From Nageia nagi (Eukaryota; Plantae; Pinophyta), in the NCBI GenBank assembly GCA_050084985.1, contig JBITNC010000001.1, positions 27,962,001 through 28,026,000 of the forward strand: a stretch of DNA of 64,000 nucleotides, read 5' to 3'. The translations under genes and the position numbers were made by a program. Of this stretch, positions 2,107 to 59,990 are shown in pieces. A model generated the notes under the pieces. The model made no database searches, was not told the origin of the DNA, and was given only the letters and a program-made list of their open reading frames with translations. Position 1 is the stretch's first letter. Each line of letters opens with the position of its first letter.

Positions 2107-2890
2107 TTCGAAGGAGCCATTCTGTCATACATACCTTATGAGATAGGGAATTTTCATGTGAAGATTCTTCTATTGGTTGCTCTTCTTTCTTAATCTCTTC
2201 ATTGTCCAAGAAAGGTTTCAACTTCCTCTCACAGTGTTTAACAACACTGTTAACCAACTCATGTGCAGCAGTAGAAGCAACCAAATCTTGCCTCCAAGCA
2301 TCCAATAACATAGATAAGAGTGGTTGGAAAATATAATCACTTTCTTCTATGATCAAAATCATGATATCTCTCATGGCTTAAATGACATTATTAGCATGTT
2401 TCTCTCTAGCTGAAGTAATGAAATGATGAAACATTTGGTAAACCCACTCATCTGTGTCCATATCTATCAAGATGCAACCCATTCTAGTTTTTGCAAATCT
2501 TTCAAGTATGTCAACCCTCCTAGAGAAATGAGAATATGTACCATCTTTCAAACCCTCAAAACTATCAACCAATAATTGATATATTGTTTTCAATGTATTA
2601 TCATCATAAGGAGTTTTCGTTGCAAATATTCTTAAAATTTTGCTCAAACAAGAAGTAACCATGATTCTTACTTGCACATTTGTATGTTTCAACCATCTAG
2701 ACTCGCCCAAAACCTTCACCAACAAAATTATAGCTGCTTGTGGTTGATATATCATTTGCAAATAACCTTCTGTCTCCTCCATTGTGCGAAGGATAACATC
2801 TCTTGGTTGACATAGAAATCCAAATCCACTTCCTACATTAGCAAGTTTCTCAGCCAACTCTTTTCCCTCCAATGGTGCCATGATCTTCAA
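2087..2890 (-). pseudogene. Intronless PDS5 (PDS5C/D/E-type) N-terminal HEAT-region copy inside the LTR element; one in-frame stop at 2378-2380
   Basis: ORFs 2378-2890 and 2087-2374 share a frame (NNVI*AMRDIM). Motifs LKHTNVQVRIMVTSCLSKILRIFATKTPYDDNTLKTIYQLLVDSFEGL, RRVDILERFAKTR, MFHHF and IMILIIEESD...ELVNSVVKHCERKLKPFL align colinearly with plant PDS5 (KHxDxDVKVxVAxCISEITRITAPxAPYDDxxMKExFxLIVSSFExL...KRxSILETVAKVR...MFxHF...IMTLVLEES...CAxKLKxYL). Confidence 0.88.
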
Positions 2891-3605
2891 AACCCTAGCT
2901 CAAAACTCTGAAAAATACCAAATCCACTCAAGACATGACTAGATCTATGCAAAATACCAATGGATTTATTGGATTGATATTTGATCTGCTGAAAAGCTGT
3001 TTTACCCAAAACCTAAAAACCCTAGATCTGATAGATCTACCAAAAACTCTTGTAGATCTACTAGATCTGCTTAAAATACTTGTGAATCTATTGGATCTGA
3101 AATAGATATGGCTGGATCTGATATAATATTGCTAGTTCAGCAGAAATTCCTCTGAAAATTTTAATTAAAACCCCAATCTTCCCTAAAATCCTCAAGCAAA
3201 ATTTTTTCTGACTGGCCAGGATAAGAGATCAAGACTTTTTGTGCCCAAAAATAGATTTCAAACCTGCAAATTTAACCTCCCAAAACTAGACGAGTTATTC
3301 TAGGAATGCAAATTTTCTCAAAAAGATGCTATTTTGGCTCCAAAATTTGCTTTTCAATAGCAAAACTTGTTCAGATGATGTAAACTCAAAATTGCCAGAT
3401 CTGATGGATTAAACCCTGGATTCTGATCAAATAGTTATAGATCTACTTAATCTCCCATAAATCTGCAATACCCAGAAGCTAGAAATCGTTGATCTGCAAA
3501 TGACTGAATTTTTCACAGCGAACTCTAACCCCAAATTCTAAAAGGAAATTACTGGATCAGCTTGATTGCTCCACAGGTTGGCAAGATCCAAGCTTTGATA
3601 CCACT

Positions 3606-9574: not shown

Positions 9575-10195
9575 CAATTAAGATTTTAGAAATTGAAAAA
9601 GGAGATACAAAGAACTTATCTGGATGATTGGGGATTGGAAGTTTGCTGGTGGACAACCTGTGTTTTTTGAGGGTGAACCCTAACTGTTTCCGATCCAGAT
9701 AATTTTGGAGATGATAATTTTGAAATGATTTTGTCAAAGATGATGCTTGAAGCAATATGCAGATAATCTAGATCATCCTTGTTCGACCATTGAGGTTGCC
9801 AAGCCTTGGGACCAAAGCATTAACATTTTGGACTTGCAATGCTAGAGTGTTGGGTGTTCTAGGCTTGGGTGCCAAAATGTTGGGCGTTCTATGTTTGGGT
9901 GCTAAAAACATTGGATGTTTGAATGCTTGTTTAGCCTTATGCTTTGCTGCTTTGGTTGCTTGGATAATTTTGATGATATTGCATGATGATAGAAGATAAA
10001 CTTGTGTGATGATGATTGCTTATGATCTTTCGAATGTCTTGCTTATTATATTTCTTTTTCACTATCATATATAGAATGAACACTTGGGAGTGCTTTATAA
10101 ACGATTCACAAATTTGATTGAGTTCAACTAGATGACCCACTTAAAACAATGTGCTTAATTAAAATATATCATTTAAGTTATTTCAAAATAACGCG
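9575..10195. repeat. LTR-like fragment homologous to 18430-19030
   Basis: Colinear shared blocks, e.g. ggagatacaaagaacttatctgga, gctagagtgttggg, gatagaagataa(a/g)cttgtgtgatgat, gattcacaaatttga. Confidence 0.65.
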
Positions 10196-17801: not shown

Positions 17802-19134
17802 TGTTTCCACCAAAATGAAGAATCAAATTAATTGAAATCACAAAGGCATGTTGGCCAACCAAAAGTAGAAGAAAACAATGAAACTGAAAAACAAAGTTGA
17901 GGAGTATCTCATGAAGACAAACAAAATCCGAAATCAAAGGCAAAATGTGCATGGGCATAAGGGAGAAACTGAGTTATTATTGGGATGAACAAAGAACAAT
18001 TCAATTCTAAACAAGATATGTATGAAACAAGATTCTAAAAATGCAAATAAGCTAGGTTTGATAAATGCAAATATGTAGCTAGTCTGACCATAAATGCGAG
18101 TAGAACTAGAAACTATGCATATTGCTAATGCAAAAGACAAGGGAAAGTTTGAGGAAACATGTCTTATGTGGTGCAATAGTGGATGATACCTACAATTCAA
18201 GGTAGATAGCATGTATACCATAGGAATCATACCATTATTAATAGAGATGAACATAGTGTTTGCCCCAATGTGATAGTTGAGATATTGCATGCCTTGCGAG
18301 TGTGTCCTCATAGGAGCTATCTCCCATAGTGTGGACCCTATGGAGATAGGTGTGATCTTGAAGATGATTTCAAGTTAGATGGGGAAGGCCTCAAACTCTG
18401 CCAGAATAATGGATTGAGGGACCATGCTCTTGCAATTATGATTTTGCAAATTGACAAGAGGAGATACAAAGACCTTATCTGGAAGATGGTGGATTGCAAG
18501 CTTGTTGGCAGGCAACTTGTGTTCTTGGAGATGATGATTCTGAATATGATAATTTTGCCGAAGGTGATGCAACAATTGATATACAAACAATCTAGAACGA
18601 TCTAGTTCAATTGCATGGGCTGTTGAGGCTTGAGATCAAAGTGTTTGTGTTTTGGGCTTGCGATGCTAGAGTGCTAGGCATTCTAGGCTTTGGGTACTAT
18701 AACATTTGGTGTTTTGGGTTTGGATGCTGTAATGTTTGGGCATTCTTGCCCAGAGACCTATTTTCTTGCGCTTCATTTCTTTGTTTGCTTGGATGATGAT
18801 ATTGATGTGATGATAGAAGATAAGCTTGTGTGATGATTATTAGTTATGATCTTTCAAATGTTTTTCTTGTCATTTATTTTTCATCATCATATTTGGAATG
18901 AGCACTTTGGAGTATTTTATAAAGGATTCACAAATTTGACTTTGCGTTTATTTAGGTGGACACACTTAGAATAAGGTGCACAAAGATAAAGCTAAATTAG
19001 AAGATATCACTTAACTTATTTCAAAACAACCCTACAAAATTGACATTTTACATAAATCATGCAAAATGTATTAATAAATACATTTTAAATATCCAAAATG
19101 CAAATTTTAGTGTCCGCAGTTTTTAAGTGGAACA
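17802..19134. mobile_element. Probable solo LTR, same family as 9575-10195
   Basis: TGTTTCCACCAAAA...TTTTAAGTGGAACA inverted ends; no convincing TSD. Confidence 0.5.
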
Positions 19135-20685: not shown

Positions 20686-22859
20686 GTACATATTTTCATG
20701 AAATTTTACCTGGTTACAATCTTTGTGCAAATTTCAGATATGTAAGAAAACTTTTCCAAATCAGACAAGAAGATCAATGGAGAAGGCTAGGTGAATCAAA
20801 AGATAGAGGAAAAGTAGATTAATGCATGAAACTACATGAATTAAAAGAGATTTTGTAATAAAGGCATCAGTGTTGTAAAGACTATTTTCATGTTTAGAAA
20901 GAAAGAAATAAAAGAGAGAAAGGTTGGTCAATGGAACTCTATACAAATTGTGTAAAAGCGCTATGAGAGCCCTAAGGGGCTCAGAAAAGAAATAAAAAAT
21001 AAATTTCGGCTAAGACAAATTAAGGAAAAATGGAAGCATATAGAAGATATGTTTGAGCAACATCGATTACCCCAAACAATTGCAAGAAAGCTCACTATTA
21101 ATCATTTTTTCTCAACTACCAACTCACACATTTTCTCCCCTTATGGTATACTTTTTTTGCATGTGATTCCATTCTTCTCTCTCTCTATATCTTTTCATTT
21201 GTCACAGTTTTCCTTTTAAGAGGCTTTTTAACACGCAACTTAAAGACAGGATACAGGTGTAGCCAAGCCTTATGTGGGCATTTAATTTATCTATGGCATT
21301 TTGGTGGGCATCATTGCCAATTCTATTTTTGATTGATTGTTATGCTCCTTATATTGTCAATTATTCACTGGCCTTTGAGCTGATGATAGAGTCTAGTTTT
21401 TGCAGTCCTTCATAATGTCAGCCCATTGGGTTTTCAACCTCTTAGCACTTTTTTCTTTCTAGCTGGATGTACTTTTGAGTCCCATTTGTTGGTATGTTTT
21501 TCTTTCCTCGCCCAAAACATGCACAAGACTTGGAGGAAATAACGTTACTTGTTTCCGCCTGAAAGGACTGGTTACTCCAAGCACTCACATGGAAATGGTC
21601 TAGGGCACAATGGTCAAAGATGCATGTTGTTAACCGTATAAAAGGGAAATACATCGTCGGGATTCGTTTTCAACAAAAGAGGAAAGACTGCAAATGTGAA
21701 CGAAAGCGAAGAAAGATCACAAATACAGGGATAAATGCATAAGAATATAAATGATGAACTTATGAAGATATCACCAGTGATGCAGTGTCTCAATAGGTCA
21801 TCTCCAGATTCATTAAGAAAATATATTCACTATCAGGTCGAGCAGCAAATAGCAAAAGGCTCAAGTTACTACCAATCAAGAGCAAGAAGCTATAAGGTCT
21901 TGTTGGAAGATTGGATGGAATAGAATGAAGGGTATTGACAAACATGTGAATACATAATCTAACTGAATGACATAGAGATAAGTTATATGCCCCAGAATAA
22001 CATGCAAACCATGCATTGAATAACTTAAACCACTTCGAAAGATATTCAATCAACTTTTTTTAAAACTCGCAGTTTTTAAAGAAAATGAACTTAAGTAGTA
22101 AAAATCATTCAAACCAGCAAGAAAGTTTCACAGGATAATATGCATGATCCCACAAATGATAATCTTCATAATATTAACTTTATAGAACTATTCCAAAAAG
22201 AAATAAACTCACAATGATATTCCATAGCATGAATAGAAGCATTCCTTTCTTGATTGCAATGATCTCAATATCATATTCAACATGAAACAAATATATGACA
22301 ATATACATTCATGATATGCAAAGAATCCCTTATGCAGCAAATCCTTATGCAACCATATGCAAAAATCCTCAATTTTAGCAGATGCAATAGTCTCATGCAA
22401 TCAACATTATCCAAAATCCTCTTCTAAATGGCTTAAATGGAGTATAAATAGGCCACTAGAAGTGTTGCCCTAAAGGCATCAAATTTGATATGGTGTGCAC
22501 TCCCGCAACACACATACTGATACAAAATTTGATTGTTCACAAAAAATGATGCAAGTGGCACTTAAAAGCTGACAAAATATAAATGCCACAGCTGTAATGC
22601 ATTTAATCTACCTCTAACCTATGTAAAAGAAAATCAGATATGCAATAAAAGTTTGACATCTGAACCGATGGTAGCAAAACTTCATCCTCGCATTGGTTAG
22701 AACCATTAATAAATCTGACAAATTTGACTTGGAGGGAGCAAAACCTCATCCCTACACCAGTCAAATCGAGTAAATAAAGTTTGACAAACAATAACCACCA
22801 TCGATATGCATTAAAACAAATAAAGATTAACGTAGATAGAATCTACGAGTGGATCATAT

Positions 22860-37463: not shown

Positions 37464-39239
37464 GTTTTTTTTTTTTATAATAAGGGTAAATTATATTATC
37501 AAAACACGGGTTTTAATCTGGGCCCCAAAACCGGTCACAAAAATGGTTTCAGAAAGCCTGAAACCACTACCCAACTATACCTATTGGTAGCCAAAAAAGA
37601 CGTAGAAAGCAGCTGAAAACCATCCATAACTATACACGAATACATGCCGAATTGCAACAACAGAAAATACAATACTGCTAGTTGGAAAATGCACTATAAT
37701 CAAAACCGTTTCCCCCCTTTCCTTTCTAGGGTAGCCTATTTCTGCTTCTTGCGGAAATTTGCTCTAGTCTTAAATCTAAACTACATGATTGAGGCATTAT
37801 AGCCCCTAATGATCTATGAAAGGATCTTTATTGAGGGGTAGCAATGGCCAATTGGCCCCTTTTTTGCTCTAGAGTGCTTTGCTTCCCATTAACAATATCC
37901 TGTTCAGTCAATCGATATCTCAACTCACTTGAGGATGGTCTTTCAATGTGTGGTTGCCCCACATTAGGTGTTTTTCGGGTGTTTAGGATATTCTTGGATG
38001 GTATTTTGTACCTACGTTTTGTTGTTGTGTAACTGTGGTTGCTGCAAGATTGTTTGTGTTTTTAGCTTTCTTGAGCACTCTCCTAATGTCTTCTACACCA
38101 TCTGCTCCTATTTCTTCATTTACCTCCATGTCTTCTACTTTGTTTTCAGAGAAGTCAATATTAAATTCAATGTTCTCTCTGTCAATTCCTTCCAAAACAC
38201 CTAAGATAGCATATGGGTTATTGGTGGGTGAAGGGTTTGAGGTAGCCCTATTCTCTTTGCGAGATTTATCAGAGGTTTTTGCGAGGGTTTTATTTGTGTA
38301 CTTGCTAGCATTCAATCTATCCTTACCTTTTTGCACAATTGTCCATTCATTTCTTTCATTTTTATTTGCATTTTTTGACTTAGTTTGGTTCTTCCTTTCC
38401 TCCTCTCGAGTTCTTTTGTCGAGGCAATCTTTAGCATAGTGGTCGAAGCTCTTATAGATTCCGCATTGCATTGGGAGATTTTCATAGAAGATCAGCTGGA
38501 TCCAAACTCTCATGTCTTTTGTTTTAATTTCAACTTCTTTTCTCATGGGTTTGGAGATGTTGATATTGACTATAAACCTCGCATCTGTTAGTTTATGCCT
38601 TAGTCGTGTTGCTCTTTCAATGGTAACCAATGTACCAAGTGCCTTGGCTACCCTTGCAATGACACTCGAATGCCAATAAGATGGATGCAAGAGTGAGTCC
38701 CAGGTAGGTATGAGATTGAAGTTTTTTGATTCAGGTGTGAAGTGTTTGTCCATTGTTTGATAACGAGCCCTTTTTTCTCGAGAAACCATGGTCCGAGTTC
38801 TATCACCTTTTGCAGGTCTTCCTCAAATTGAAATTTGAAGATCAAGAATTCCTAAGGGAGTGCTATCAAAGAGACAGGTCCTTGTTTGCTCCATCTTTCC
38901 CGAATCCAACTTTTGATAACTTTGATCGGGGGTCTTACTCCAACAAATCTACCGATTAGGGCATTATGTAAATTGCTTTCGCCAGCTTCATTGATAGTTT
39001 TAGGTACAATAATACTCACCATCTCCTATGTCTGGCTCCAAGGTTTCGCTTATGGCTGCCTCTACGAACGGTTTTTCTTGCTTTAACATGCTTCTCCATT
39101 CTCTTGGGAGTTTGGGATCAGGTTTTCTTCTGTCCTTGTTCGCCGCGTTGCTTTGGTCATTCGGATGCATTTTGGATTGGTTGCGACAGAAATGAATTTC
39201 AGCTGCTTTTTAATTTTTGTTACCCTGTGCTCGCTTCTA
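37464..39239 (-). mobile_element. L1-clade LINE derivative: 5' end, ORF1, first codons of ORF2, 3' UTR and poly(A)
   Basis: TSD TGATAAGAGTG (37453-37463 / 39240-39250); poly(T) at 37465-37477. ORF1 fragments FKFQFEEDLQKVIELGPWF (DUF4283-like) and YENLPMQCGIYKSFDHYAKDC (zinc-knuckle-like). IKILS*IIRGYNA at 37831-37793 resembles the MKILSWNVRGLN endonuclease start. Confidence 0.85.
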
Positions 39240-40110: not shown

Positions 40111-43100
40111 AGTTTAGGCTAGCAACTTATGATGATCTCATGGGCCCCCTCCTTTGCGAATTTGTGGATGATATTTAGCACTTGCTTGATGAGCAACGTA
40201 AGGATTGGAGGAAGAGGGGTTGCACTATCATTTCTGATGGGTGGATTATCGAAGGAACAAAATATTAATTAATTTTTTGTTTGCTTCTTTAAGAGGAATT
40301 GTATTCCTCAAATTAATGGATGCATTGGTGGAGGTTGTCTTAGAGGTGAGAGCAAATAATGTTGTCTAACTCATCAGAAGCAATACAACAACATTTGTTG
40401 CCGCAAGTAGAATGTTGGAGCAGAGATTTCCCACCCTTTTTTGACACCATGTGCATCCCATTGTCTCCATTTTCTACTCAAAAGACATTTGCAAATTACC
40501 TTGGGTGGTGGAGGTTGTATAGAAGGGTAGGCCTATCATGAAATTCATTTAAAAACATACATGGGTCCTGTGGCTATGAGTTAGTTGTTGTGCTCAAACA
40601 CGACACACCCCAAACTTTGCAATTTTGAGGACCCAACGTTTTGCTAAGTCATGATCATCAATAAGCTAGAGTCCCGCCTCATGTTATACAAATTCGAAAA
40701 ACCCGTTGAGAACCAAGTGTTGTACTTCCCTCCCAGTCATAGTCATGATGAACTTGTATTTGAAGATATCCAAAATTGACTATGTTTGGAAGATAGGAGA
40801 CTCCGGGGAACAATGTGAGATAGGAGACCAAGTCCTATGACCTGAAAATTTGATTGTCTCAAAAGGTGTTAGTGTCAAAGTTGTCTTTCTTTCAGGAGCA
40901 CTTAGGAGACAAGGCAAAAGAAGGCTAAGCGCATGACTGAAAAACGACAAAGTTATGACTTTTCTAGGCATGTACTTGGACAAGAGGTGCCTCATTTTGG
41001 AATGAAGATGGTCAAAATGCAAAGTTACAGCCTCTGAGATGGATTTTGAAGCGAAAGAAGGGCTCAAAGGGTGAGTGCATGACAAAAAGTCATAAATATG
41101 ACTTTCGAAAGCATGTGCCTAGCTCAAAGACACCTAAGGATCCTGGGCATGGATAAAAAAGACAAAAATGTGACTCTTGGGAGCATGTGCTTGGCTTGAG
41201 GGTGAGGATGTGACTAAGGTGTGACTCCGAAAGCACCCAAATCAGCCCAAAAAGACAAAAGGAGGAGAGTATAGGACAAAAAAATGAAGTCATAATCATG
41301 ACTTTTGGGAGCATGTGCCTGACTTAAAAGGGCTCCTAGATGAACATGAAGATGAAAATATGACTCTTGGGAGCATGTGCTTGGCTTGGATGGCATTCCA
41401 GGAGAATTCAAGGTGAAAAATTGGTTAAGTCCTGACCTTGAAGTCATAAATATGACTTTTCAAGAAATGCGCCAAGCAAAAAAGGCAAGGAAGTGAGCGC
41501 ATGCCAGAAAAAGACATAATCATGAGTTTCTAAAGCATGCGCTTGTGATGAAGAGCCCTCCCATGACTTGAACATGAAAATTCGACTAAGGTATGAGGAA
41601 GAGAGCATCAAAACGAGTCCGAAGTCATACTAGAAGGCAAGCGCATGACAAAAAAAAGTCATAAATATGAGTTTCTGGGACGTGCTCAAGACATGAGAGC
41701 TCCAAGATTGATTCAAGGTGGAAAAAATGACTAAGCATGGGCCTCGAAAACATCGAGACCAAGCAAGAATCATACAAAAGGACCAGCGCATGAGCAAAAA
41801 AGACAAAAGGATGACTTTTTCAAACCTGTGCCATGCCCAAAGAGGTCTAAGGAAGGTGCTAATGCGCAAAAGTGACTAGGTGTTGGACTTGAGACTCCAT
41901 GATCAAACTCAAAATGACCCAGATCATCAAGCGTATGTCTCCAAAAGACCAAAACTTGTCTTCCAAAATCCCACACTCAAAAGGGAGAGACACTTGAGTT
42001 GAGCGCATGATTCGAAAGTCATAATTATGACTTTTTGAGACATGCACCTAAGGGGAGAAGACACCAAAGTCAAACGCATGAGTTAAAGAGGGAAAATTTT
42101 GGTCTACAAGTGGCACATGTATCCCTAGGTTGGCCATCACATTTAATGCACCTCTTTCTAGGCCAATCCTAGCTGACTAGGAACAAATGAAGCCCTAATT
42201 TTGCCTATTAAAGAGGAGTCTACCTTCATTTCACATCACAAATTTGTTCTCTCTTCAAATTCGCTAAGGCATCAAAAGTTAGAATGGCAAGGGCAAGCTC
42301 CAAGATGAAAAGGGAGAAGATTGAGCTAGAATAGGTGGGGAATAATGAGGGCACTTCATCAAAGAAGAACAACATCGACATAGCCAACTTTGATTAGAGC
42401 GTTACATGAAGACTTGGGCCAAAGGGGGAAAGATTGTTGGAATGTATAATGCATTATTGTAAATAGATGTATTAAATCTTCTATGTAAATTCACTAATAC
42501 TTAAAGGTATTATTTGATACCTTAAGTATTTTAGTGAATATAATAATGTAACTTGTCCTACACTCCAAGTCATGAGCATGCCCCTTGGGTCAAAGATGTG
42601 CATGTCATGCTTAGGTCATCCAAAGAGGGATTTTGGCCTATAAATAGAAGGCTCCCTCTTTGTAATGATATACCAATTGTGGAGTAAGGATATGCTCTAG
42701 GATAGAAGTGTAGGAGTTGAGATTAGGAGAATTGTAAGAGAGTTGTATTTGTGAGAGAAGTAAAGATCTAGTTAGTGGATGTACTCCTCGTTGGAGGAAC
42801 CACTTTACATCTTGTGTTGTGAGATTGCTTTGTGTATTTGTTGGATGTAATTGTGAGCTTTCATGTGATCTTGGTAGTTTAGGAATTATATTGTTAATGT
42901 TAGTTCCTACAAATTGGTATCAGAGCTTGTGTGAAAGCTCTTATTTTTGGTGTGGAAGCTCTTCTTCAACATCTTTGGAGTTTCCTCTTCATATCCTTGG
43001 AGACTACTCAACGTGGAGGTTGTTTTTCATCTTACACTTCCTTGTTGAGGTAAACTTAAGAAAAGGTATAAATTCCTCCATTATTTTTTGATTATTTTAT

Positions 43101-45444
43101 TATGATTCTAACATCCTTTTGTTGAGCCAATTTTTTTTAAGGAAATATATTTATATATTATTGCTATGAATTTTCTTTACTAAGACTATTTAAACAAAAA
43201 AAAAAAAAAAACTTTAGCAATAATATGTTATATTTTCTTTCAAAGGATGCAATTTTTTTTTTGGTCCACAAATTTGTAAAGCAATTTTACAATAAAAATT
43301 GCATTCATAAACAAAAAAAAATTAAAACAAAGGGGCGGCAAAATGTTTGTTACAAATAGTTCTAATCTATATGATTTATGCACTCATATTTGTTATTTGT
43401 TTTATTTTAACAACTTTATTTGGGTGCTACGTGGCCTTGAATGCCCCTTGCTTGCTCTCTCACGGCTTGCATGTGTTAGCCTTTTGTTTGATGTCTTGCC
43501 ACCTCTGTGGTTGTCTGCACCCCTTCCTTCTCATGGAATCCCAAGCACTTCGATCCTTTGTGGCCGATTGAATGTAAACGCACTTATCCATGGCTGTTAT
43601 CAAACATGTTCATTGCGCGCAACTCTTCTCCTTGCGCTACCTTTCCTGTTTCACTTCCACTGAGTTTTCATTGCTTGTAGGGAGGGCAGATGAATCATTG
43701 CTGGCGCATCCTCGATGGTGGTATCAATCACCTTGGCTCCTCCTTTCCTCTCGACTAGGGCCACGAACTATCTTTCCTGCAATTTTACTCCTCACAACGC
43801 TTGAAACCTGGAATAGTTTTTGTTTTATCCGGATTGAGGTGCCACCGTCGTCGAGTCAGACATGTTGGATCTTCGACCTCCTTTGTTTTGTTTTCCTTCT
43901 GGAACATCTTTGCATGGCATCCCGTCCTTTGTTTCCCTGTTCACGAAACGGCCAGACCAAAGCCGCACCTTACACAAAAACAAATCCCTTCGAGAGGTTG
44001 GTCGCGAATACCAATAAGTAGCTCTCTGCTCCACACGCGCGCAGGAACCTGCACCATGTGATTTCAACAGCAATGGTACCTATCCGTATCGAACAACCAG
44101 GTTCAACAGCTGTCACAATCCCCGCACTTGTATTTCTTCTTCCTTGCCACCCCTTATCCGTTTATGGTGGCGCCTATGGGCCATGACTTCTCCTTTCTCC
44201 TCACCTACACCCTCACCTACACCATGAAAGTCGACTCCTTTGTTGATTCTTCTCTTCTCTGCGCCTTGAATTCTTTTGCCGTCGCCCATTTTTTTTGACT
44301 TTGGCGCTTTTACTAAATACAAATTCCATTTATGTGACCATTGACTTAGCATAATATTCCACCTGATTGCGTTGTGATAATGACAAATTTGACTTTGGTA
44401 ATTGGAATCACAATTATTTGAGCAACGTTGTTCAAAGCACACTTGGTGCATATACGTACTCTTGTATCAATTGATGGAGAGTGAGAGTGTCGTTTTGCTT
44501 ATTATTGAAGTAATCATGTGCATCTTCCACTACTGGAGCTTCTTGCGCCCGTTCATTTGTTTTGTTTGCCCCTGTCTATTTTTTAAAGGATTCCTCTCTT
44601 ATTGCCCTCTTTACTCAATTTTGTTAGAGGATCTTATTTTTTATTGTTGAGTATTTTACTTAATGCATTAAAGGGGAGTAATTTACTTATTGCATTAAGG
44701 GGGAGTATTTTACTTAGCTTAAAGACTTAAGTTAAATATTTTTAAGTCACAAACGCATGATTTTTTTAAAGGTCTCTCTTGTTTTTAAGTAAAAGAGGGG
44801 AGAGTGGTCTAAATTTTTTACTTAAATTTTTAGCGCATGCTTCTTACTAAGGCTTAATTTTGAATGCATGCTCAAGAACTTAAATTTTCTAAGTTAATGG
44901 TACATGCTTAGTACTTAACTTTAAATGCTGCATGCTTAATACTTATGCTTAGTTCTTAACCTTAAATGATGCATGCTTAGAACTTAAATTTTTTAAGTTG
45001 ATGTTGCATGCTTAAGACTTAATTCCTTAAGTTAAAAGATACATGTTAAGTATTTATCTTTTATGATAAGATAACTTATGCAAACTTTTGGAAAGAACTT
45101 AAAATTTAAGTTAAATATTTTTAAGTCAAAAATGCATGCTTAGGACTTAAAATTGTTGAAGATTCAAGCTTATGACTTAAAATGCATGATTATACCTCTT
45201 AAATTCTAGTTTTTATGAAACAATAATGCATGCTTAAGTTTTTTGGATTGATGCATACTTCTTTATGTTAATAATGCATACTTATACTTATGGGATTGAT
45301 GTATGCTCTTATGCAAAGTTAATGGACTTGTGCAAAATAAGAGATGATGTAACGATGTCTTTTAGGGGTTAGTAAACAAAACCCATTGGACACTTAGGTT
45401 TTGCGTTATTGAATGGATGATATTTTTATTTATGCTCGTTTATT

Positions 45445-46046
45445 TCATGTTTCGCATTTTTGATTTATTTGTTTATGCAAACAAAAATGCAAACATTGAT
45501 ATGAGCAACCCCCTAAAATGAACACATCTGCACTTACATTCCGCAACATGACTTGTTTGGGGAGCCATGAGGTGAGGACAGACAGATTGGAGCCTTTAAG
45601 TTCGACGATCCAAGTGGTGAAAAGTTCGTATTGCTTAATTGCCTTTAAGTCCTCTGTTGGTCTGGATTTAACTCCAATAGGTGGACAGGTATGTGTGTAG
45701 TGATACCACATATCTGCATGTCCATTCAGGGATTATCTTGATAACGTAGGAGGAAAACTTGAAACCTAATCAAGATTAATAATTTGGCCGATCCAATAAA
45801 CATCGGAACTTTGGAAAATAGCTCGTACGTCTCCTTGTGAGAGTATATTGCTACCCAAGGGGAACTGGTTGAGGATTGGTAGAACCTAGGCTTTTCTTGT
45901 GTGGGCATCCAGGTGAAGGCCTAATTTTAGACAAGACAACAAGCCTCAACAATGTCGCTCTATATTCAATGGTGTTCTTTTTTATGTTGTGCTATGGTGA
46001 TTTGTTCTACAAGCACGAGGGTTCGTTCATCCTTGTTTACTAGCAT
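45445..46046 (-). pseudogene. Third antisense ~200-codon degenerate ORF (ORF C), unknown
   Basis: MLVNKDERTLVLVEQITIAQHKKEHH*I*SDIVEACCLV*N*AFTWMPTQEKPRFY...[frameshift]...HADMWYHYTHTCPP...KCET*; the stops are compatible with C>T decay of CGA/CAG/CAA. Confidence 0.4.
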
Positions 46047-46214
46047 TATTCTGTTTTGTGCATCATTATTTATGATGTCTTTAAATTAAATTATTGTATT
46101 TGCGGCTTATCTTGAGAACTTGGAACTTTATCCAATAAATGATTTAATACAAGATAGAAACAAAAAATAATATTTTCGAAAAATTCCACTCACAAACTCG
46201 AGTGGATAGACAAA

Positions 46215-46777
46215 CTAAGTAGAATCATGATTGGGACAGTTGGAGTTAGAACTCTCAAGATTTGTAATAGGAGAACTAGGTATATGGAATAATGCATCAC
46301 GAGTAATCAGGGCAAAACAACACCTGATGTCGAAAAATGGGTAGTACACCCATTGATCCCCTTCTCGCGTTAGTTGTGCAACATAAGTGGACTCCCAATG
46401 AAGATCTCGTCACCATACTGTAAGCGCAACAGTATAAGGGTGACAGTCCTCATGAGGATGCAGCCTTGAAGGACCTGGATAGTGCAAAAAATGGAAGACA
46501 AAAGGTGTCCACGAACAATAAAGAATGATCTTCCATGTCCAGTTCAGACGACAGACAAGTTGAGTATGAGGCGCAATTGCTCAATATCCTCCAAGTGATG
46601 GATAAAGCAAATTGCCGATTGACGGAGACTTCGATCACCTTGTATGCGAACCAGGTTTTGTCGCATCGCAGTTTGTAGTGCAATGTAAGCACGTTGTAAG
46701 ACTCGACCTTGAATACATCGATAAAGAATGTCTTGGGGAAGATCCGCACGCAGACCTTGGAAAATGGTCATATCCAT
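46215..46777 (-). pseudogene. Paralogue of ORF A (ORF B) with one frameshift and one stop
   Basis: MDMTIFQGLRADLPQDILYRC...[frameshift ~46545]...NWTWKIILY...YPGPSRLHPHEDCHPYTVALTVW*RDLHWESTY...DST*; 563 nt versus 564 nt for ORF A; TATAAAT ~80 nt upstream. Confidence 0.75.
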
Positions 46778-47025
46778 GATGACTGACAAAGTTAGCTCTC
46801 TCTGAAGGTTACATACATAAGTGAAAATGATGATGATCAACTAGAATACAATGAATTTATAGAATTTCCAAACTAACTAGATCATCGATCATAAATAGGA
46901 ACATTAAAATGGATCAACAATACAAGCACAATAACCAATGTGACCTTGTCCTTTATTTTATTACAACGTTAGAAAAGATTTCCATCGACAAGCCCAAGTG
47001 GGTGGCATTTACGGCTTGATTAATG

Positions 47026-47589
47026 CTAGTCTAGTACATGGTCACCAAAATCCGAAGTAGCATCATCTTCAGATATGCTAGAATCGGATGTGTTTAATCC
47101 CAAAAGATATTGATGTGAAAGAGGTGGAAAGTGATAAAAAAATGAAAATCGGTGGCACAAAATACGATGTCCATCTTGCAAAGTAATACGAAAAGAGTAC
47201 GTGGATGACCATTGAAGCCCATGATGACAAATTGCCCATGCAACAGTGATTGGTTCGAAATACTCCTGTGGATGTAGGCATGGCGGTCCAATGTAGCATA
47301 CAAATTGCAACAGATAGCGATTGAACGGAGTATAAACCAATATACGCCATGTCCAATCAGACCGATTAAGCAAATGAAATAATTGGTGCACATGATCTTC
47401 ATGATTGATATGGAAAATCATGCACATACCAAAATGATCGTCTAGGTACAATTGCAAAAATACTAGTCGTTGTTGCAATAAACCCTCAAACGCGATCAAA
47501 GCACAATTTTCTAAAGTTGCATGAACACTGCGATGCACTATGTTATCCTGGAGATCGTTCGGTAGGGCATGAAACTGAGACATATCCAT
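47026..47589 (-). CDS. Intact 187-aa element-encoded protein of unknown function (ORF A) with an F-box-like N-terminus
   Basis: Uninterrupted ATG-to-TAG ORF; TTATAAATA ~65 nt upstream on the same strand; LPNDLQDNI fits LPxD/ELxxxI; a full-length diverged paralogue next door supports coding status. Confidence 0.7.
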   Translation of the reverse strand: MDMSQFHALPNDLQDNIVHRSVHATLENCALIAFEGLLQQRLVFLQLYLDDHFGMCMIFHINHEDHVHQLFHLLNRSDWTWRILVYTPFNRYLLQFVCYIGPPCLHPQEYFEPITVAWAICHHGLQWSSTYSFRITLQDGHRILCHRFSFFYHFPPLSHQYLLGLNTSDSSISEDDATSDFGDHVLD

Positions 47590-47885
47590 GACGGATAATA
47601 GCTCAAATCATAAATGCAAAGCGTTGAATGACAAGCAAGGGTCATTTACAACTATTTATAACGCATATGATTTGATATATTCAACTATAATAATTATGCC
47701 AACTGGAGAAAAAGATTTGCGGCGATAAAATATCTCACCTACCACTCATTTAATTGAGTGAAGTCATACGCATCATGTCATGTTAAGACGACAATAATGA
47801 TAGTACCACTAAGCCGCGTAATGACTAAGTCATCGTTGTGCTATTATTTTCTCTCCTCTTGACTTTTAAGTTGGATAGTTTACTC

Positions 47886-48378
47886 ATGAACGATAGGTTG
47901 ATCGTCATGACTTCCACAGAGAATTTTACTGCACACATGGGAAGTTCTTCCTTGAGTTCTAATACAGAAACAAACATATGGGTAGACTTAGAGAATGCCT
48001 ACCTTTGCCATGAACTGGCTATCACAAAGGCCGAAATGGAAATAATGGGCCAACGTTATGATATGCTACAACAAGAGAAAGCTGTATGTATACAGCAGTA
48101 CCATGAATTCTTGGATGAGCACAATAAACTACTAGCTGAGAAAAATGTGGCAATTACAAGCCAAAGAGTTTGAGACACAACTTAGGCGCAATGCAAACTA
48201 TAGCTGCTATGGAATGCGACAATTAAAAGATAAGTGGAAGTAACGAGCCTTCCAGTATAAGGCTATCCTTCGCCACTTTGGTATTCACATTCCAAAGGAC
48301 ATAGCATCTCAACCTTCTATGGATCCTATCGTAGTTGACCCACAATCTCAATCACAACAATCAACCGCTCTGGTATAG
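47886..48378 (+). pseudogene. Sense ORF D, coiled-coil-like, divergent from ORF A
   Basis: MNDRLIVM...ELAITKAEMEIMGQRYDMLQQEKAVCIQQYHEFLDEHNKLLAEKNVA [frameshift] LQAKEFETQLRRNANYSCYGMRQLKDKWK*RAFQYKAILRHFGIHIP...ALV*. Confidence 0.55.
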
Positions 48379-48714
48379 AATGGACATTCCTATACCAAAA
48401 CCACGTGTTTTTTATTCACCACGCCCCGTTCTGAAGTAGGGTTGGTGACATATCCCTCCAAGGGGAGTATTGGTTGAATTCTTATTGAATTCTTTATTGG
48501 CTATTGTAATATATATATGTAGACTTTTCCAAATCCAAACAAGTTCTTGATGAAACAACTACAACTCTGTTCATCTACATTTTGTTGTTATTTTCATGTT
48601 GGGAAGGTGGATCCATTTTGATGGATTATGTTACATTACTAAATTCAAGTCTCTTTTGTTGATGGCTTTGTGTTGTAGTGTTGATTTTGTTGTACACATT
48701 TGTGGTAAGTTTGC

Positions 48715-49145
48715 TCTGCATGAGGAACTTGTTGTACAACTTGGCCTATCTTGCACTGTTCAGTTATCCATATGTGAGGAATTCTTATGTCTTTTGACAC
48801 TGTTCAGTTATCCATATGCGAGGAACTCGTATGTGCATACTCTATATTTTGGCCTATCTTGCACTGTTCAGTTATCCACATGTGAGGAACTCTTATGTGT
48901 CTTTTGGCATTGTTCAGTTATCCATATGTGAGGAACTCGTATGTGCATGCTTTGTTCTAGCATTGTTCAGTTATCCATATGTGAGGAACTCTTATGTGTC
49001 TTTTGGCACTGTTTAGTTATCCATATGTGAAGAACTCATATGTGCATGCTTTATTCTAGCACTGTTCAGTTATCCATATGAGAGGAACTCTTATGTGTCG
49101 TTTGGCACTGTTCAGTTATCCATATGTGAGGAACTCGTATGTGCT
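48715..49145. repeat. Tandem array of ~42-60-bp units
   Basis: Core cactgttcagttatccatatgtgaggaactc(t/g)tatgtg repeated about 8 times, with alternating spacers. Confidence 0.9.
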
Positions 49146-49191
49146 TGCTATCTTTGTAATGATAATCAACACATGTTTTTATGTACAACAT

Positions 49192-49380
49192 GTGACTATA
49201 AGTATTGGCTTGGCATTCTCAGTGATGATTTATAGTGCACCACAAAATCCATGTATTTTTTGTTGACTATAAGTATTGGCTTGGCATCTTCGTGATGACT
49301 TATAGTGCAACATAAATTCAAGTACTTGTTGGTGACTATAAGCATTGGCTTGGCATCTCCGTGATGGCTTATAGTGCACT
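49192..49380. repeat. Three ~70-bp hairpin-forming repeats
   Basis: gactataag(t/c)attggcttggcat...gtgatg(a/g)(t/c)ttatagtgca x3; actataag / cttatagt arms. Confidence 0.85.
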
Positions 49381-51949
49381 TGTGGCCACATTTTTTTTCT
49401 TTTTCCATGACGATGGAAGATACTTCCATGATGATGGAAGCTTGATCCATGACGATGGATTCTTTACAAATGGTTGATGAAATTTGAGTCATTTCGATTG
49501 ATTCATGCTATCGATTTCATCATTTTCCTCTTAACTAGTAGCATGGTTAAGCTAGACTTCTACTTGGCTTACTCTTGGTAAAGTCAAGTTTATTTATTGT
49601 GGCATCTTGACTCACTCTTGGTAAAGTCAAGTTTCTTTGTGGTACTTAAGATGGCATTTTGTGCCTTATGATATTTGTTTTGCCTGTAACTCTTGGTGTC
49701 CATATTGATCATGTTGGCATTTCTTCCTGGCGTGCTATACATGTATTTGTTTGATGAAGTCGTCATCAAGGGGGAGAACTTGTCTGTATTGTTGTGATGA
49801 CACTCCTCATATAAAACAAATACACAAGTGCACAAGTGATAGTGCACGTCTTGATATATGCACAAGTGATATTTTTAGATATCATACTTGATGATTTATG
49901 TCATCCTTGTTGTTGTGCATTTATGATGCTTTATTATGATCAGTGTATGTATAGTGTGATTCATCTATCCTTGTTCATATAAATATGATGCATCTACTGA
50001 TATTGTTATTTGAGCTGCTTATGATTTGCAGGTTTCTTTGAGATTGCAGGTTGCTTACCTCAAGTATGCAGGCTCTTCGAGACTCTTCAAACTTCTAGTT
50101 GGATGACTACTTCATGTACATTGAAACCAGTTGTGGTTAATGATTGTATTTGGTAAAGTAGTGAGTCTCAAACTAGATCTTTCTTCCTTCACAAATATGT
50201 AAAAAGTTCTCATCTTCGTTGTATCTGTTTGGAGAACTCTCTTACTTTCTCTTCTTCTTCTCTTACTCGCTCTATCCCAATATTGCATTAAGGGGGAGTG
50301 TTGGAATGTTTAATGCATTATTGTAAATATATGTATTAAATCTTCTATGTAAATTCACTAATACTTAAAGGTAATATATGATACCTTAAGTATTTTAGTG
50401 AATATAATAATGTAACTTGTCCTACACTCCAAGTCATGAGCATGCCCTTTAGGTCAAAGATGTGCATGTCATGCTTAGATCATCCAAAAAGGGATTTTGG
50501 CCTATAAATAGAAGGCTCTCTCTTTTTAATGATATACCAATTGTGAAGTAAGGATATGCTCTAGGATAGAAGTGTAGGAGTTGAGATTAGGAGAATTGTA
50601 AGAGAGTTGTATTTGTGAGAGAAGTAAAGATCTAGTTAGTGGATGTACTTCTAGTTGGAGGAACCACTTTACATCTTGTGTTGTGAGATTGCTTTGTGTA
50701 TTTGTTGGATGTAATTGTGAGCTTTCATGTGATTTTGGTAGTTTAGGAATTATATTGTTAATGTTAGTTCCTACAAAGATGAGTCCACAACAACTCACTA
50801 TGTAAAAAAATTCATCTTCAAGGTCAATAATACCTGATTCGAAGAAATCTCAAGACTTGGAGGATCATACCTAGAAGATGGAGGTCAACAAGATCAAGAC
50901 CACATGAGCAGAGCGGATCAAAGAACTAAGAAGGATTGCAGAAGAATTGGAGGAGAGCCAAAAGAATCAGTCTTGAAGAAGATAACATGCTCTCGAGGCC
51001 ATACCATCCTCAAGATAGGGTGACCATTCAAGAGCCAAGACATCCTTGATGTGCTTGATAGTTATAGAATGTGAAGTGTTCAAGTATTGCAGAGATGAAG
51101 AAGATGGATGAATTCATGAGTATCAACTAGATGGAGGCGTTGTGCTGGAAGTGCAAAAATTTGCATTTTTTTTATTTCACTTAATTTCATTTCATTTTGG
51201 ACCTTAAAACACTATTCATTTTGATTCAACTTTGTGATGGATGAGGATTTGCTCCCACAGGAATTGACTAAATCTTGTAATGACATTTGACATCGTTTCA
51301 GTAGACCACTAGTAATTAGGTTTTATTTCAAGTAATTTCATTTGAATTTGCATTAGGGTTAGGGCAACACTTAGGGTTGTGACCCAAAATTATTTAGTCC
51401 TTGAGGGCTCATTTTAAAGGGAGGATGATCATTTTTTCTCAAGAGGAGCTATTTGGAACTTGCTAATATTTTTAACACTCCTTCGTATGTGAATGTTGTG
51501 CATAACTCAAACAAATCAAGACCGGTTTCAATTTATGGGATTATGGACTTGAGTACTTGTACTTAGTGTTTACTTGTGGTTTTTATATGAATTGTATGAT
51601 ATCCATTCGATAAGCATTGTGCACTCTTTTGCATGCAAATGGATATATGTTAGTGAAGTTCTTTCTATATCGTTTGGTTTGATGGACTTCTCATGTTGCA
51701 CTTGGTAACATTGTTATAGGCTTCATCTTACTCACAACTTGGACTTTGTTATTTGTGGCAAGGATTGGATAAGGGAGTAGGCACATCATAATAAACCCAA
51801 AGAGAAGGTTATCTAACCTCTAATCCATTGGTGAACTTGTCTTTGAATGAACTCACCTCATATGCCATCATCCCCAATTTTCATTTCCTTTTACCTTTAC
51901 TTTGTTATTTTTTTTTTTTTTACCATCAAAAGTTTATCCTTCCAATTGG

Positions 51950-56094: not shown

Positions 56095-56840
56095 CTACAT
56101 TTGATAAATTATCATTGCAATTCCTTTTGCCATTGCAGAATTTCTACAAAGAGAATGTAAAATAATCAGTGTTTTGTACCAGTGATCAATATCAAAGCCT
56201 AAATATTTGTAACAATGAATCACCTCTATAGGTTGATTGTTAAAGAGCATTGTAGAGTGAAACATATTTTTAGATTTAATAATCATAATTTTGATTTTGT
56301 TTGCATTAACTACTAAGCTAGATATATGATAGAATGTTTGAAGAATATTTAATTGTTTTACAAGATCGTTATAATGTCTAGCTAGCAAGATAATACCATT
56401 TGCATAAAGTAAAGAGAATAATGATGAGGTTGCCAAGGTTGATGTTTACACATTTAGTTTTTAAATATTTTTGTAGTTGATCTATGTATTTTAGATTTGG
56501 TAATAGAAGATATCCTTTTTTAACTCCAATATTTCAGTTAAACTACTTGATTAGTTTCAAGTTTCGTGATAACTCGTCCATGAAATCTGTAAACTACATA
56601 TGAGTTCATAAGATATTTCTAAGTTGACCATACACATTAAATGTTTACCCTTGGAGATATTATCGAAGGCTTTTTTGAAATCCACAAGGAAAAGAAAAAG
56701 ATCTTTATCATTTCCATAATCTTCAACAATAATTTGAAAAGTGAGGATGTGATCAATTTTGAATATTTGCTTTTAAAATATTTTTTGTACTGCAACATTG
56801 TTTCTTTCTCCAAGAACATGATTTCCTTCATATTTTATTA
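56095..56840 (-). mobile_element. Decayed RTE-like LINE reverse-transcriptase fragment
   Basis: LLYANGIILLA (YADD-like), LVVNANKIKIM and YKYLGFDIDH, plus FVDFKKAFD-like and GVKQG-like remnants upstream. Confidence 0.75.
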
Positions 56841-56899: not shown

Positions 56900-57600
56900 G
56901 AGAAGTGCCTTTCACCATCATTTTCTTTACCTAATATCTTTTGTTAATTTACCATCATTGCAAACAACTCTTGCTTCAACCAAAGGGTTACTCATTTTTC
57001 TAAAACATTGTGGAAAAGCATCAATCAAAACACCCATTTATTTTTGATAACCCATCCACTTTGAACCTTTAGAGGATTTTTCTTTAGAGGTCCCATCAAA
57101 GTTCAATTTAAACCAATATGTTTTGGGAGCTTAACACTTGACATTAATATCCAGCAGCTAGGAAAGCTTCCTCTTTTTTTTTAATCTAATTCTCCAAGTA
57201 GATAATAGATAAGTTATTCAAAAATGCTTTTTTAATGGATTGAATGTTTATGACAATATATCTTTTTTCCTCTTTAAAAATCCTCTTGTTTCTTTTCAAC
57301 CAAATACCCCAACCATAATGAAATGGAATGATGTCCCACAATGCATTCAATCTTTTGTTTTAAAAAGGCATCTCCCACTAGCATAACCAATCTAATGTTT
57401 TATTTGAGAGAACCCAATACATTCCTATTTCACGAATGCTATTAGTGAAAATCTACTTAAACTACTTGTATTGTAAAAAGATATGATCTACAGATTCCTT
57501 GTTCGATTAACACAAGACACATTTATTAATTAGTTGAATTTTTTTTCTTCATATATTGTAGATATACCATTCAAAATTATGATAATTAAATCTAAAAAGA
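56900..57600 (-). mobile_element. Decayed L1 ORF2 C-terminal fragment (zf-RVT/RNase H-like)
   Basis: LNFDGTSK-like and CVLC...ESVDHIF-like remnants on the minus strand. Confidence 0.5.
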
Positions 57601-57619
57601 TGTTTCACCCCATAATCCT

Positions 57620-59990
57620 CCTTAATAATCAACCCTTAGAAATGGTTCACTCTTACAAATACTTGGCTATCGACATAAATCATAAACTAATTTAGAATTT
57701 AAGTGTTGAAAAAGAACTTGTATGAGAGCGAAAACCTTTTACGGTTGATAAAATAAATGTAAAAATGCAAGACTTTGGAATTGGGATGAAAGGAAATGTC
57801 TTCTGTACTACCTTGTAACTTCAATACTACTTTATCGTTGTGAAGTCTAGGGTGGAAGCATTTTTAGATAAACTTGGAATAAAATTGAGCAAATTCAAAA
57901 TTCATTTTATCTAATATAACTTCAAATTGCAAATGAAGTAACTCAATTTTTTTGGAGTAATGATAACATCAAAGATAAAAGAAAACTAGCTTACTACAAA
58001 AATTAGCCACCCCAAATTTGAACTTCCATCCTATTTACATAAGATTACTAGTCTCAAAAAGAAACTTATGATCACAAGATTAAGAACTAATTTTCAATAA
58101 CTATATAATGAAATTGGTAGATGAACAATACCTAAAACACTTTGGGATAAAAACATTTCTAAATTCTGTAACCTCATAGAGGATGAAACTTGCATTCTTT
58201 TTTTTTTTTTGGCCCACTCTATAAAGACATTATACAATCCTACAAAAATATTTGCTACTACAACTTGATCTAGAAAATTCTTAACCAAGATAACATAAAC
58301 AAGCTTGGAGATTTTATTATAAACCTTAATTATGTCAAAAATAGACATTCTAATACTGAATTGATACATATTTACTTTTGGACAAACCTTGATAGGTCCT
58401 ACAAGCCAATGGGTTTAAAAGGATGTTAAAAGACTTATCTATTCTATCATTCATATGGAAGTTGGTTCACTCCTTATTGAAGTTGAAGCTTTAAAATGAT
58501 GTATATTATATAATTATAAACTAACAAAGTTAGATTGTCTTACATTGCTTGTACTCACCTATCAAATTTTTAAAACTCATTATCTTAAAAGAGGTAAAAG
58601 ACTTTGATAAGTTGCTTAATTTTTGGGGCATAGGGCATACATGATAACATAACCCCTTCTAAGAGCGACAAAATAGAAGTACAAATTTCAAATACAATAC
58701 TTCAAATTTTTTGAAAGTGATGATAGCATCAAAGATAAAAGAAAACTTATTGCAAAATATCATTAATTTGAAACTTGAACATCCATCTTCTTTGCATAAG
58801 AGTATTAGTTTCAAAAATAAACTTGTGATTGCAAAATTAAGAAAATTAATTCACATGAACTACATAATGAAATTGGTAGATAGACAATACTTGAAACACC
58901 TTAGGATAAAAGAATTTGTAAGTTCTGTATCCTAAAAGAATGAGACTCATTTTCTTCTTTTTTGCCAAGTCTTCAAAGACATTAGACAAATGTATAAAGA
59001 TACTTGTAATTATAATTTGATCCACTAATTCTTAAACCAAGATAACCAAAACAATCTTGGTGATTTTTATTAAACCTATTTATGTAAGAAACAATCATAT
59101 AAATAGATGTTTCTTAATATTTGGATACAAATTTGCAATCAAATGACTAAGGTGCAGATGAAGCTGAATCACCTCAGTGCCCTCCTAGATTATTGGGCTA
59201 ATGCTCCATGCTCAGTTAGTCGAGTGCCCCTGAAGATTTTGTGGCAATGCACCCTTCGTTCCTCGTTGCGATCTCAACATTACCCACCAAAGAGAAACCA
59301 TTCACAATCTAGAGGGCGACATTGGTCATAACCATCTCTAGTTCGACAACATGGGTTTGATATTGGTGCTAGTTCCTTGCAACATCATGGTGGTATGGTT
59401 TCAATGCCTACATCAACTTCACCACATTCGAGGTGAGGAGGACATCCCACTACTGCTTTCAATGCTTGCAATAATACCCTATGGGATACTCAACATTCTC
59501 CCTATTTTGTTGTTAATGCTTAAGAATGGGGGAAGATGTGGAAGCTATTAATGCATATGTCCACAAAGGCGACAAGTGGGACATTCAACCTATTCCAATG
59601 AATATGTGGGAGAATATGGTGGAGGAAGAGCCGCCCACTTGGGTTGGCCCAACCAATGTTGCTTAATGTATTTTATGATTGTCTTTTTTTGTATGGTGGA
59701 CCCTTAATATGCGTGCTTATAATCGTTCCTTATAGCGGTTCTTTTTTTTATTATTATTATTAGACTCCTAATCTGATTTTAGGATTAGTGTCGTAACTTC
59801 TTAGGGTGTGTTTGCTACCACCCACTTTTTTTGACTGTGAAGGCATTTATTCAAATATAATTTGCTTTTTCATAAAAAAAAATATATACAATCATATAAA
59901 TACTTAATTGATATTAATTTACTTCTTGACAAACTTTAATAAGACCTACAAACCAATGGGTTTAAAAGGAGATTAAAAGACTTATCTATA
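57620..59990 (+). mobile_element. RTE-like LINE 3' fragments (two related 3' ends), interrupted by an L1 insertion
   Basis: NQPLEMVHSYKYLAIDINH; 57955-58350 resembles 58715-59090; shared tail cctacaa(g/a)ccaatgggtttaaaagga...ttaaaagacttatcta at ~58400 and ~59945. Confidence 0.65.
59106..59887 (+). mobile_element. 5'-truncated non-LTR (L1-like) insertion
   Basis: 15-bp TSD ACAATCATATAAATA (59091-59105 / 59888-59902) and an A-rich tail. Confidence 0.7.

What the first reader, a model, noticed from the sequence alone, without database searches (positions are those of the whole stretch)
42435..50775. Young gag/pol-less Copia-like element carrying a cassette of 4-5 small unknown genes
Seen: intact LTR pair (~3% diverged), perfect TSD, PBS, PPT and several extra AGGGG(G)AG motifs, but the 7.4-kb interior has no retroviral ORF. 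It holds three antisense ~190-200-codon ORFs in tandem (A 47026-47589, B 46215-46777, C 45445-46046), a divergent sense coiled-coil ORF D (47886-48378), a possible sense ORF (43533-~44186) and tandem arrays. Known: multiple PPT-like motifs typify Sirevirus-like Copia elements, and LARDs are usually described as non-coding. Inference: this is a mobile multigene accessory module moved in trans by an autonomous partner, more like a small virus accessory region than a LARD.
Basis: partly seen in the sequence, partly recalled or inferred. Interest (0 to 1): 0.85.

Follow-up and report, generated by a model that had tools for sequence, protein, structure and literature searches.

The report
Retrotransposon carrying duplicated backwards accessory genes
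This plant jumping gene has no detectable copying genes of its own but carries two related, backwards-facing genes of an undescribed protein family that show purifying selection and likely help its relatives spread, while the other three proposed genes are broken or unsupported.

Summary
The element is real: 477-bp LTRs (14 differences, K2P 0.030), AAGAT TSD, Met-tRNA PBS, PPT, and no gag/pol hit in six frames. The '4-5 gene cassette' is overstated. Only A (187 aa) is open here; B, C, D and E are interrupted. A and B are tandem antisense paralogues. Against a 68%-identical copy (L002, same A-B order), 241 codons give dN/dS 0.17 (0.10-0.26). Relatives reach down to about 25% identity, with no Pfam, PDB or fold match. 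C shows no codon bias (a weak test), D is untested by homology, and E's region is almost absent from family contigs. Contig depth places the B-A-D block in a minor subfamily (about 1/60-1/100 of C or LTR depth). Best reading: a LARD-sized non-autonomous copy, moved in trans, that kept a pol-to-3'LTR region with a new antisense accessory gene pair, like Grande/Retand extra ORFs. No autonomous partner could be seen. It is not a Sirevirus; Copia is plausible but unproven. The function (helper against host silencing) is inferred only. The scan held no look-alike finding.

The parts
42430..42434 (.). 5' target-site duplication AAGAT
42435..42911 (+). 5' LTR, 477 bp, TG...CA, TATA-like CTATAAATA at 42638
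42915..42926 (+). Primer-binding site for initiator Met tRNA (junction CA/AATTGG-TATCAGAGC)
   Evidence: motif as in PMC2829016 passages
43161..44595 (.).
   Evidence: contig depth 0-10 against about 1,300 for B-A-D in run X1; no Pfam hit
44649..44805 (+). Upstream PPT-like copies (44670, 44697, 44796); the first two repeat the TGCATTAA arm that precedes the terminal PPT
44819..45250 (.). AT-rich degenerate tandem repeats (35-41 bp units)
45445..46046 (-). 'ORF C': high-copy family sequence (45457-45957), interrupted in all frames; no coding signal detected; likely a relic or non-coding
   Evidence: no homologue
46215..46777 (-). Gene B, paralogue of A; frameshift near 46550 and stop at 46410-46412 in this copy; uninterrupted across that place in L002
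   Evidence: 106 codons, dN/dS 0.17
47026..47589 (-). Gene A, intact 187 aa; new small alpha/beta protein family
   Evidence: (135 codons, dN/dS 0.17)
47590..47885 (.). Divergent A/D gap; candidate internal promoter (inferred; one TATA-like word on the A strand at 47655)
   Evidence: untested
47886..48378 (+). 'ORF D': putative helical protein, frameshift near 48170 and stop at 48241-48243; gene status unresolved
48741..49459 (.). Tandem arrays (46/99-bp, 69-bp and 21-bp units), high-copy in the family
50282..50298 (+). Terminal PPT with left arm TGCATTAA; the right arm TTAATGCA lies inside the 3' LTR
50299..50775 (+). 3' LTR, 477 bp
50776..50780 (.). 3' target-site duplication AAGAT

Best explanation
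This is a plant LTR retrotransposon copy without detectable gag-pol, likely moved by the enzymes of an autonomous relative, that carries a tandem pair of antisense genes (A intact, B broken here) evolving under purifying selection and likely acting as accessory helpers for the family. Shown: termini, TSD, PBS and PPT; absence of gag/pol hits; A/B paralogy; protein-level constraint; the B-A-D block sits in a minor subfamily, while the LTR, the C segment and the 3' arrays are very abundant. Inferred: (1) everything from the upstream PPT copies (44.65 kb) to the 3' LTR is the family's long pol-to-3'LTR region, and the rare 43.2-44.6 kb filler replaced gag-pol; (2) A and B are transcribed against the element's direction from an internal promoter near 47.6-47.9 kb, as for maize Grande gene23; (3) the product, a small soluble acidic alpha/beta protein without a membrane segment, works in trans through protein contacts, most likely to blunt host silencing or to regulate the family's RNA or particles. 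Steps 1-2 are about 60% likely; anti-silencing as the specific function is about 30%.
For: (structure). (no gag/pol in six frames). (A-B E 5e-16 while blastn sees no A-B similarity); window against L002, 241 codons, identity by codon position 0.77/0.83/0.55, dN/dS 0.17, bootstrap 0.10-0.26; in four of the five other frames dN/dS is 0.97-2.0, and the fifth (antisense mirror, 0.29-0.35) holds 5-13 stops. L002 keeps the A-spacer-B order at 68% DNA identity; 9 relatives at 22-69% identity share a W..I....FN....Y.GP..LHP motif. B-A-D depth is similar across its 9 bins in three DNA runs and 460-2,500 times the filler's; model pLDDT 79-91 per block over residues 1-100; pI 5.7, highest 19-residue hydropathy 1.28. 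Precedent: PMC7264820, PMC11963269.
Against: No autonomous partner or pol-linked copy was seen, so the position relative to pol is inferred. Selection rests on one pairwise comparison with a 1.3-kb contig that holds no LTR and ends in a 31-bp match to 48547-48577 in the opposite orientation, so in that copy the pair may face the other way. The genes occur in only a small share of the family by depth, so they are not essential for transposition. No evidence on transcription or localisation. No fold or domain supports any particular function.
Confidence: 0.6

Rival explanations
1. A and B are captured host genes (retro-transduction), and the selection signal reflects their earlier life as host paralogues; the element only carries passengers.
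For: Gene-fragment capture by TEs is very common in gymnosperms (PMC13477047 passages); intronless ORFs fit capture from mRNA; L002 holds no LTR; B is dead in this copy.
Against: No Pfam, PDB-sequence or named homologue. The block is multi-copy, with dozens of distinct contigs per position and many under 90% identity. L002 shares the 250-bp spacer and a piece of the element's 3' region. Transduced genes are usually in sense and in few copies (PMC7264820).
Confidence: 0.15
2. The B-A-D block is a separate mobile module (from another retrotransposon family, a DNA transposon or an endogenous virus) that was recombined or nested into this LTR family and serves its original owner.
For: Depth steps about 60-fold at 45958 and again near 48614; L002 joins B to the 3' region in the other orientation; modular reshuffling of non-autonomous elements is documented (PMC13570524 passages).
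Against: No terminal inverted repeat with TSD and no direct repeat of 9 nt or more at the two boundaries; no transposase or viral hit.
Confidence: 0.15
3. The whole family is a gag/pol-less satellite whose main payload is this gene block: a self-standing multigene accessory element, with C, D and E as further genes.
For: This copy integrated with a clean TSD and has no gag/pol; D reads like a helical protein, and 66-100% of depth in four runs differs from this copy at D's internal stop.
Against: The 5' interior of this copy is nearly absent from family contigs, so the typical A/B carrier has something else there. E is not shared. C variants are 11 synonymous of 37 against 11.6 expected. One high-share difference in D would by itself add a stop in three of four runs.
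Confidence: 0.1

Closest known systems
Antisense additional ORFs (aORF-3R) of Grande, RIRE2, Retand and PvRetro13
   Same: Antisense coding sequence plus tandem arrays in a multi-kb region before the 3' LTR; conserved across copies; function unknown; some Retand clusters are non-autonomous yet keep the antisense ORF (PMC7264820 main text; PMC11963269 results).
   Different: The named families are mostly Gypsy/Tat elements with Lys/Arg PBS and TRP28 or SMC-like domains. Here the PBS is Met, there is no TRP28, the genes are a tandem paralogue pair of a new family, and all of gag-pol is missing.
LARDs and other non-autonomous LTR retrotransposons (TRIM, TR-GAG)
   Same: Over 4 kb, LTRs + PBS + PPT, no gag/pol, needs a partner in trans (PMC13570524 passages).
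   Different: The interior holds selected protein genes that are not gag or pol remnants.
Sirevirus (SIRE) Ty1/Copia elements
   Same: Multiple PPT copies, inverted repeat around the terminal PPT, CTATAAATA box, Met PBS, long linker with extra ORF (PMC2829016 passages).
   Different: No AT/TG attachment site, no CGG-CCG boxes, 1 CpG in the LTR, no polyC signal. The SIRE extra ORF is sense in 74% and antisense in 1% (PMC6317226 Additional file 5).
TE-encoded accessory and anti-silencing proteins (VANC of VANDAL; ATLANTYS accessory proteins)
   Same: Lineage-specific, fast-evolving extra TE proteins that act through host pathways (PMC13547354 passages).
   Different: No sequence or fold link was found; the analogy is functional and untested.

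Membership tests
LTR retrotransposon (structural) | Paired LTRs with TG...CA, TSD, PBS and PPT | tested here: met
Ty1/Copia | pol order PR-INT-RT-RH and RT phylogeny | not testable with these tools
   no pol in this copy; no genome held
Ty1/Copia | Met-tRNA PBS and 5-bp TSD | tested here: inconclusive
   present, but also dominant in Gypsy Tekay, CRM and Galadriel
Ty1/Copia | Inverted repeat around the PPT/3'LTR junction (described for Pseudoviridae) | tested here: met
   TGCATTAA / TTAATGCA (PMC2829016 passages)
Sirevirus | Multiple PPT copies | tested here: met
   6 against 0.19 expected, though spread over 5.6 kb rather than clustered at the 3' LTR
Sirevirus | PPT followed by AT/TG attachment site | tested here: not met
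   the PPT abuts TG directly
Sirevirus | CGG-CCG repeated motifs and CpG island in the LTR | tested here: not met
   0 motifs, 1 CpG in 477 bp
Sirevirus | PolyC integrase signal near the LTR 3' end | tested here: not met
   the last 45 nt hold no C run longer than 2
Sirevirus | CA/ATTGG-TATCAGAGC junction | tested here: inconclusive
   CA/AATTGG, one base longer
LARD | Over 4 kb, LTR/PBS/PPT, no gag-pol | tested here: met
LARD | Non-coding interior | tested here: not met
   A and B under purifying selection
TR-GAG | Retains gag | tested here: not met
   no gag Pfam hit in six frames
Retand/Grande aORF-3R | Antisense ORF conserved among copies | tested here: met
   orientation in L002 is ambiguous
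Retand/Grande aORF-3R | Lies between pol and the 3' LTR of autonomous copies | not testable with these tools
   no pol-linked copy retrieved
Retand/Grande aORF-3R | TRP28 (PF04195) domain; Lys/Arg PBS | tested here: not met
   no Pfam hit; Met PBS
Retand/Grande aORF-3R | Own antisense promoter and transcript | not testable with these tools
   only contigs were served, which show no strand or level
F-box-like protein (considered for A's N-terminus) | F-box profile match and three-helix fold | tested here: inconclusive
   no Pfam F-box hit for 10 members; Atlas F-box clusters only 0.79-0.80; the model has a short helix then one long helix

The most novel reading that the evidence does not exclude
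A very abundant Copia-type family has a sub-lineage with a virus-like accessory region: a duplicated antisense gene pair of a new fold, plus a divergent helical gene, expressed from an internal promoter to counter host silencing, and kept even by copies that have dropped gag-pol, so that non-autonomous elements supply a helper to the autonomous ones that move them.
Probability: 0.2. Interest if true: 0.8.

Novelty: new variant of a known kind. Interest (0 to 1): 0.5.

Why it matters
Why plant LTR retrotransposons keep antisense extra ORFs is an open question (PMC7264820). Here is a new such family, duplicated, under clear purifying selection, with one intact 187-aa member and a usable model, so it can be assayed directly. 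At about 190 codons it falls under the 250-codon cut-off of the REXdb survey, which found antisense 3' extra ORFs in at most 1% of a Copia lineage (PMC6317226). If the family is Copia, short accessory genes are a missed layer of that superfamily, and 'non-coding' LARD-sized elements may carry selected genes.

Tried and rejected
No host genome is held, so copies could not be collected. Searches for pol-linked copies found nothing: PBS/LTR patterns in viral contigs and prokaryote genome contigs; the A alignment in viral contigs (0 of 62 stretches). L001 and L003 were weak matches with no DNA or tblastx similarity shown for L003; L001 was not examined further; both were dropped. P0009 (repetitive 556 aa) was dropped from alignments as a chance hit. 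Folds: two AlphaFold models of A (pLDDT 61 and 73) gave no Foldseek match at E<=0.001 in viral or PDB libraries and a best VIA Z of 5.1 and 5.0; this does not show a new fold, and the beta-rich domain was not searched alone. Atlas hits for A were giant-virus hypothetical proteins at 0.87-0.88, a lead only; none for C. PHROGs: nothing at E<0.06. Rfam: nothing. C: no longer homologue. D: no homologue among 52-167 aa proteins; heptad periodicity weak. The codon test on C used 37 of the 87 listed differences (40 shown, 3 outside the high-copy part); the same read-out on A and B gave only 2 synonymous of 9, so it is a weak test. No RNA holder listed; run X7 is only guessed to be RNA. The bacterial promoter scan is not relevant to a plant. 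A homodimer prediction was not obtained. The sources and organisms of P0001-P0010 could not be looked up. E as a distant A paralogue, and the B-A-D block as a TIR element, were tested and rejected.
Full report
Observation. The element is as described at its ends: 477-bp LTRs at 42435-42911 and 50299-50775 with 14 differences (K2P 0.030), TSD AAGAT, a Met-tRNA PBS at 42915 and a PPT abutting the 3' LTR. Six AGGGG(G)AG motifs occur in the interior against 0.19 expected. All six frames of the 7.4-kb interior, with stops read as X, give no gag or pol family in Pfam at E<=1. A DUF4283 piece and a PDS5 piece elsewhere in the window and the PBS wording point to a plant (the plant link of DUF4283 and of this PBS is recalled). 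The host is not identified and no genome is held; a gymnosperm is only a guess.

The ORFs. Only A (47026-47589, -) is open; 4 of 500 Markov shuffles of the interior gave an ATG-ORF this long. B shifts frame near 46550 and has a stop at 46410; C has 6-11 internal stops in each frame; D shifts frame near 48170 and has a stop at 48241; E has three stops. A and B are paralogues: tblastn joins them at E 5e-16 while blastn with 7-base words sees nothing between them. A family profile finds no third member in the window.

A and B are real genes. A metagenome scan gave 2 confirmed loci of 350 pattern matches. L002 (1,325 bp) is 68% identical over 1,173 columns and keeps the order A-spacer-B; its B is uninterrupted across the place where this copy shifts frame. 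Over 241 aligned codons, identity by position is 0.77/0.83/0.55 and dN/dS is 0.17 (bootstrap 0.10-0.26; A alone 0.17, B alone 0.17). Four other frames give 0.97-2.0, and the mirror frame holds many stops. Protein searches returned 1 relative and 9 more (one dropped as repetitive), 22-69% identical, all unnamed, sharing a W..I....FN....Y.GP..LHP motif. No Pfam, PHROG or PDB-sequence match. With 16 rows AlphaFold gives a confident alpha/beta core (blocks of 79-91 over residues 1-100; mean 72.8). The protein is acidic and has no membrane segment. Limit: selection rests on one pairwise comparison, and L002 ends in a 31-bp match to 48547-48577 in the opposite orientation, so either that copy is rearranged or the contig is chimeric.

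Family context from public contigs. Laying four runs on the element (summed contig depth is not a copy number, so only ratios are used) shows four tiers in the three DNA runs: LTR, the C segment and the 3' arrays very high; B-A-D about 60-70 times below C and 80-110 times below the 5' LTR, and similar across nine bins; and 43448-44595 a further 460-2,500 times lower. So E lies in a rare filler that sits where gag-pol would be, and is not a family gene. C is shared by the large family, but 37 listed differences are 11 synonymous against 11.6 expected, with no bias in any frame. That test is weak: 47 rows were not shown, and the same read-out on A/B gave 2 synonymous of 9. For D, 66-100% of depth differs from this copy at its internal stop, but another high-share difference would by itself add a stop in three of four runs, and no homologue was found; D is unresolved. 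The B-A-D block has no terminal repeats of its own.

Mechanism. Shown: a completed integration, no replication genes detected, a selected antisense gene pair limited to a subfamily. Inferred: the element was copied by a relative's Gag and Pol; the stretch from the upstream PPT copies (two of which repeat the terminal PPT's TGCATTAA arm) to the 3' LTR is the family's long post-pol region; A and B are read from an internal promoter in the A/D gap; and the protein acts in trans as an optional helper, most likely against host silencing. The last step rests on analogy only (about 30%). Rivals are host-gene capture, a foreign module recombined in, and a gag/pol-less gene-carrying satellite family.

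Comparison. Antisense extra ORFs with tandem arrays before the 3' LTR are known in Grande, RIRE2, Retand and PvRetro13, with unknown function, nuclear localisation and an own promoter for Grande gene23 (PMC7264820: main text read). Some Retand clusters lack gag or pol domains but keep the ORF (PMC11963269: abstract, Background and the first part of the structural results). In REXdb, antisense 3' extra ORFs are 1% in SIRE and not listed for most other Copia lineages, at a 250-codon cut-off that would miss A and B (PMC6317226: passages and Additional file 5; two rows have unlabelled values; Additional files 1 and 3 were too large to read and could hold this family). Sirevirus membership fails on three defining motifs (PMC2829016: abstract and passages). 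The PPT-flanking inverted repeat favours Copia, but a Met PBS does not exclude Gypsy chromoviruses. By size and content it is LARD-like except that it codes (PMC13570524 and PMC2851119: passages). PMC13547354 and PMC13477047 were seen as passages. Six literature searches showed no listing that describes this family; subscription papers and repeat libraries were not searched. The scan's own notes held no look-alike and one unrelated note.

Verdict. A new variant of a known kind: a gag/pol-less LTR element with a new, duplicated, selected antisense accessory gene family. Two genes are established, one is possible, two are not supported. Interest 0.5; 0.8 if the family proves to be Copia and the protein counters silencing.

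Noticed in passing
window 2381-2899 (-), with open frames at 769-1260 and 1203-1802: Fragment of a PDS5 cohesion-protein gene (Pfam E 1e-25); probably a pseudogene or captured piece.
   Followed up: no
window 37986-38822 (-): 279-aa frame with a weak DUF4283 match (E 9e-5), likely a LINE ORF1 remnant.
   Followed up: no
window 9575-10192 / 18433-19030 and 13855-14254 / 21772-22158: Two interleaved old direct-repeat pairs (69% and 77% identical, 8-9 kb apart), possibly LTR pairs of older elements.
   Followed up: no
window 56183-56294 / 57571-57682: 112-nt inverted repeat, 79% complementary, 1.3 kb apart; possible non-autonomous DNA transposon.
   Followed up: no
L002 1263-1325: B stops abruptly and is followed by a match to window 48547-48577 in the opposite orientation: an inverted A-B module in that copy, or a chimeric contig.
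   Followed up: partly
window 40944-42057: The element's left flank is a degenerate array of about 42-bp units, so it inserted into or next to another repeat.
   Followed up: no
window 47029-47589 (-): A has 17 His and 6 Cys in 187 aa, and its nearest Atlas clusters are small giant-virus hypothetical proteins (0.87-0.88); metal binding or a viral link is untested.
   Followed up: partly
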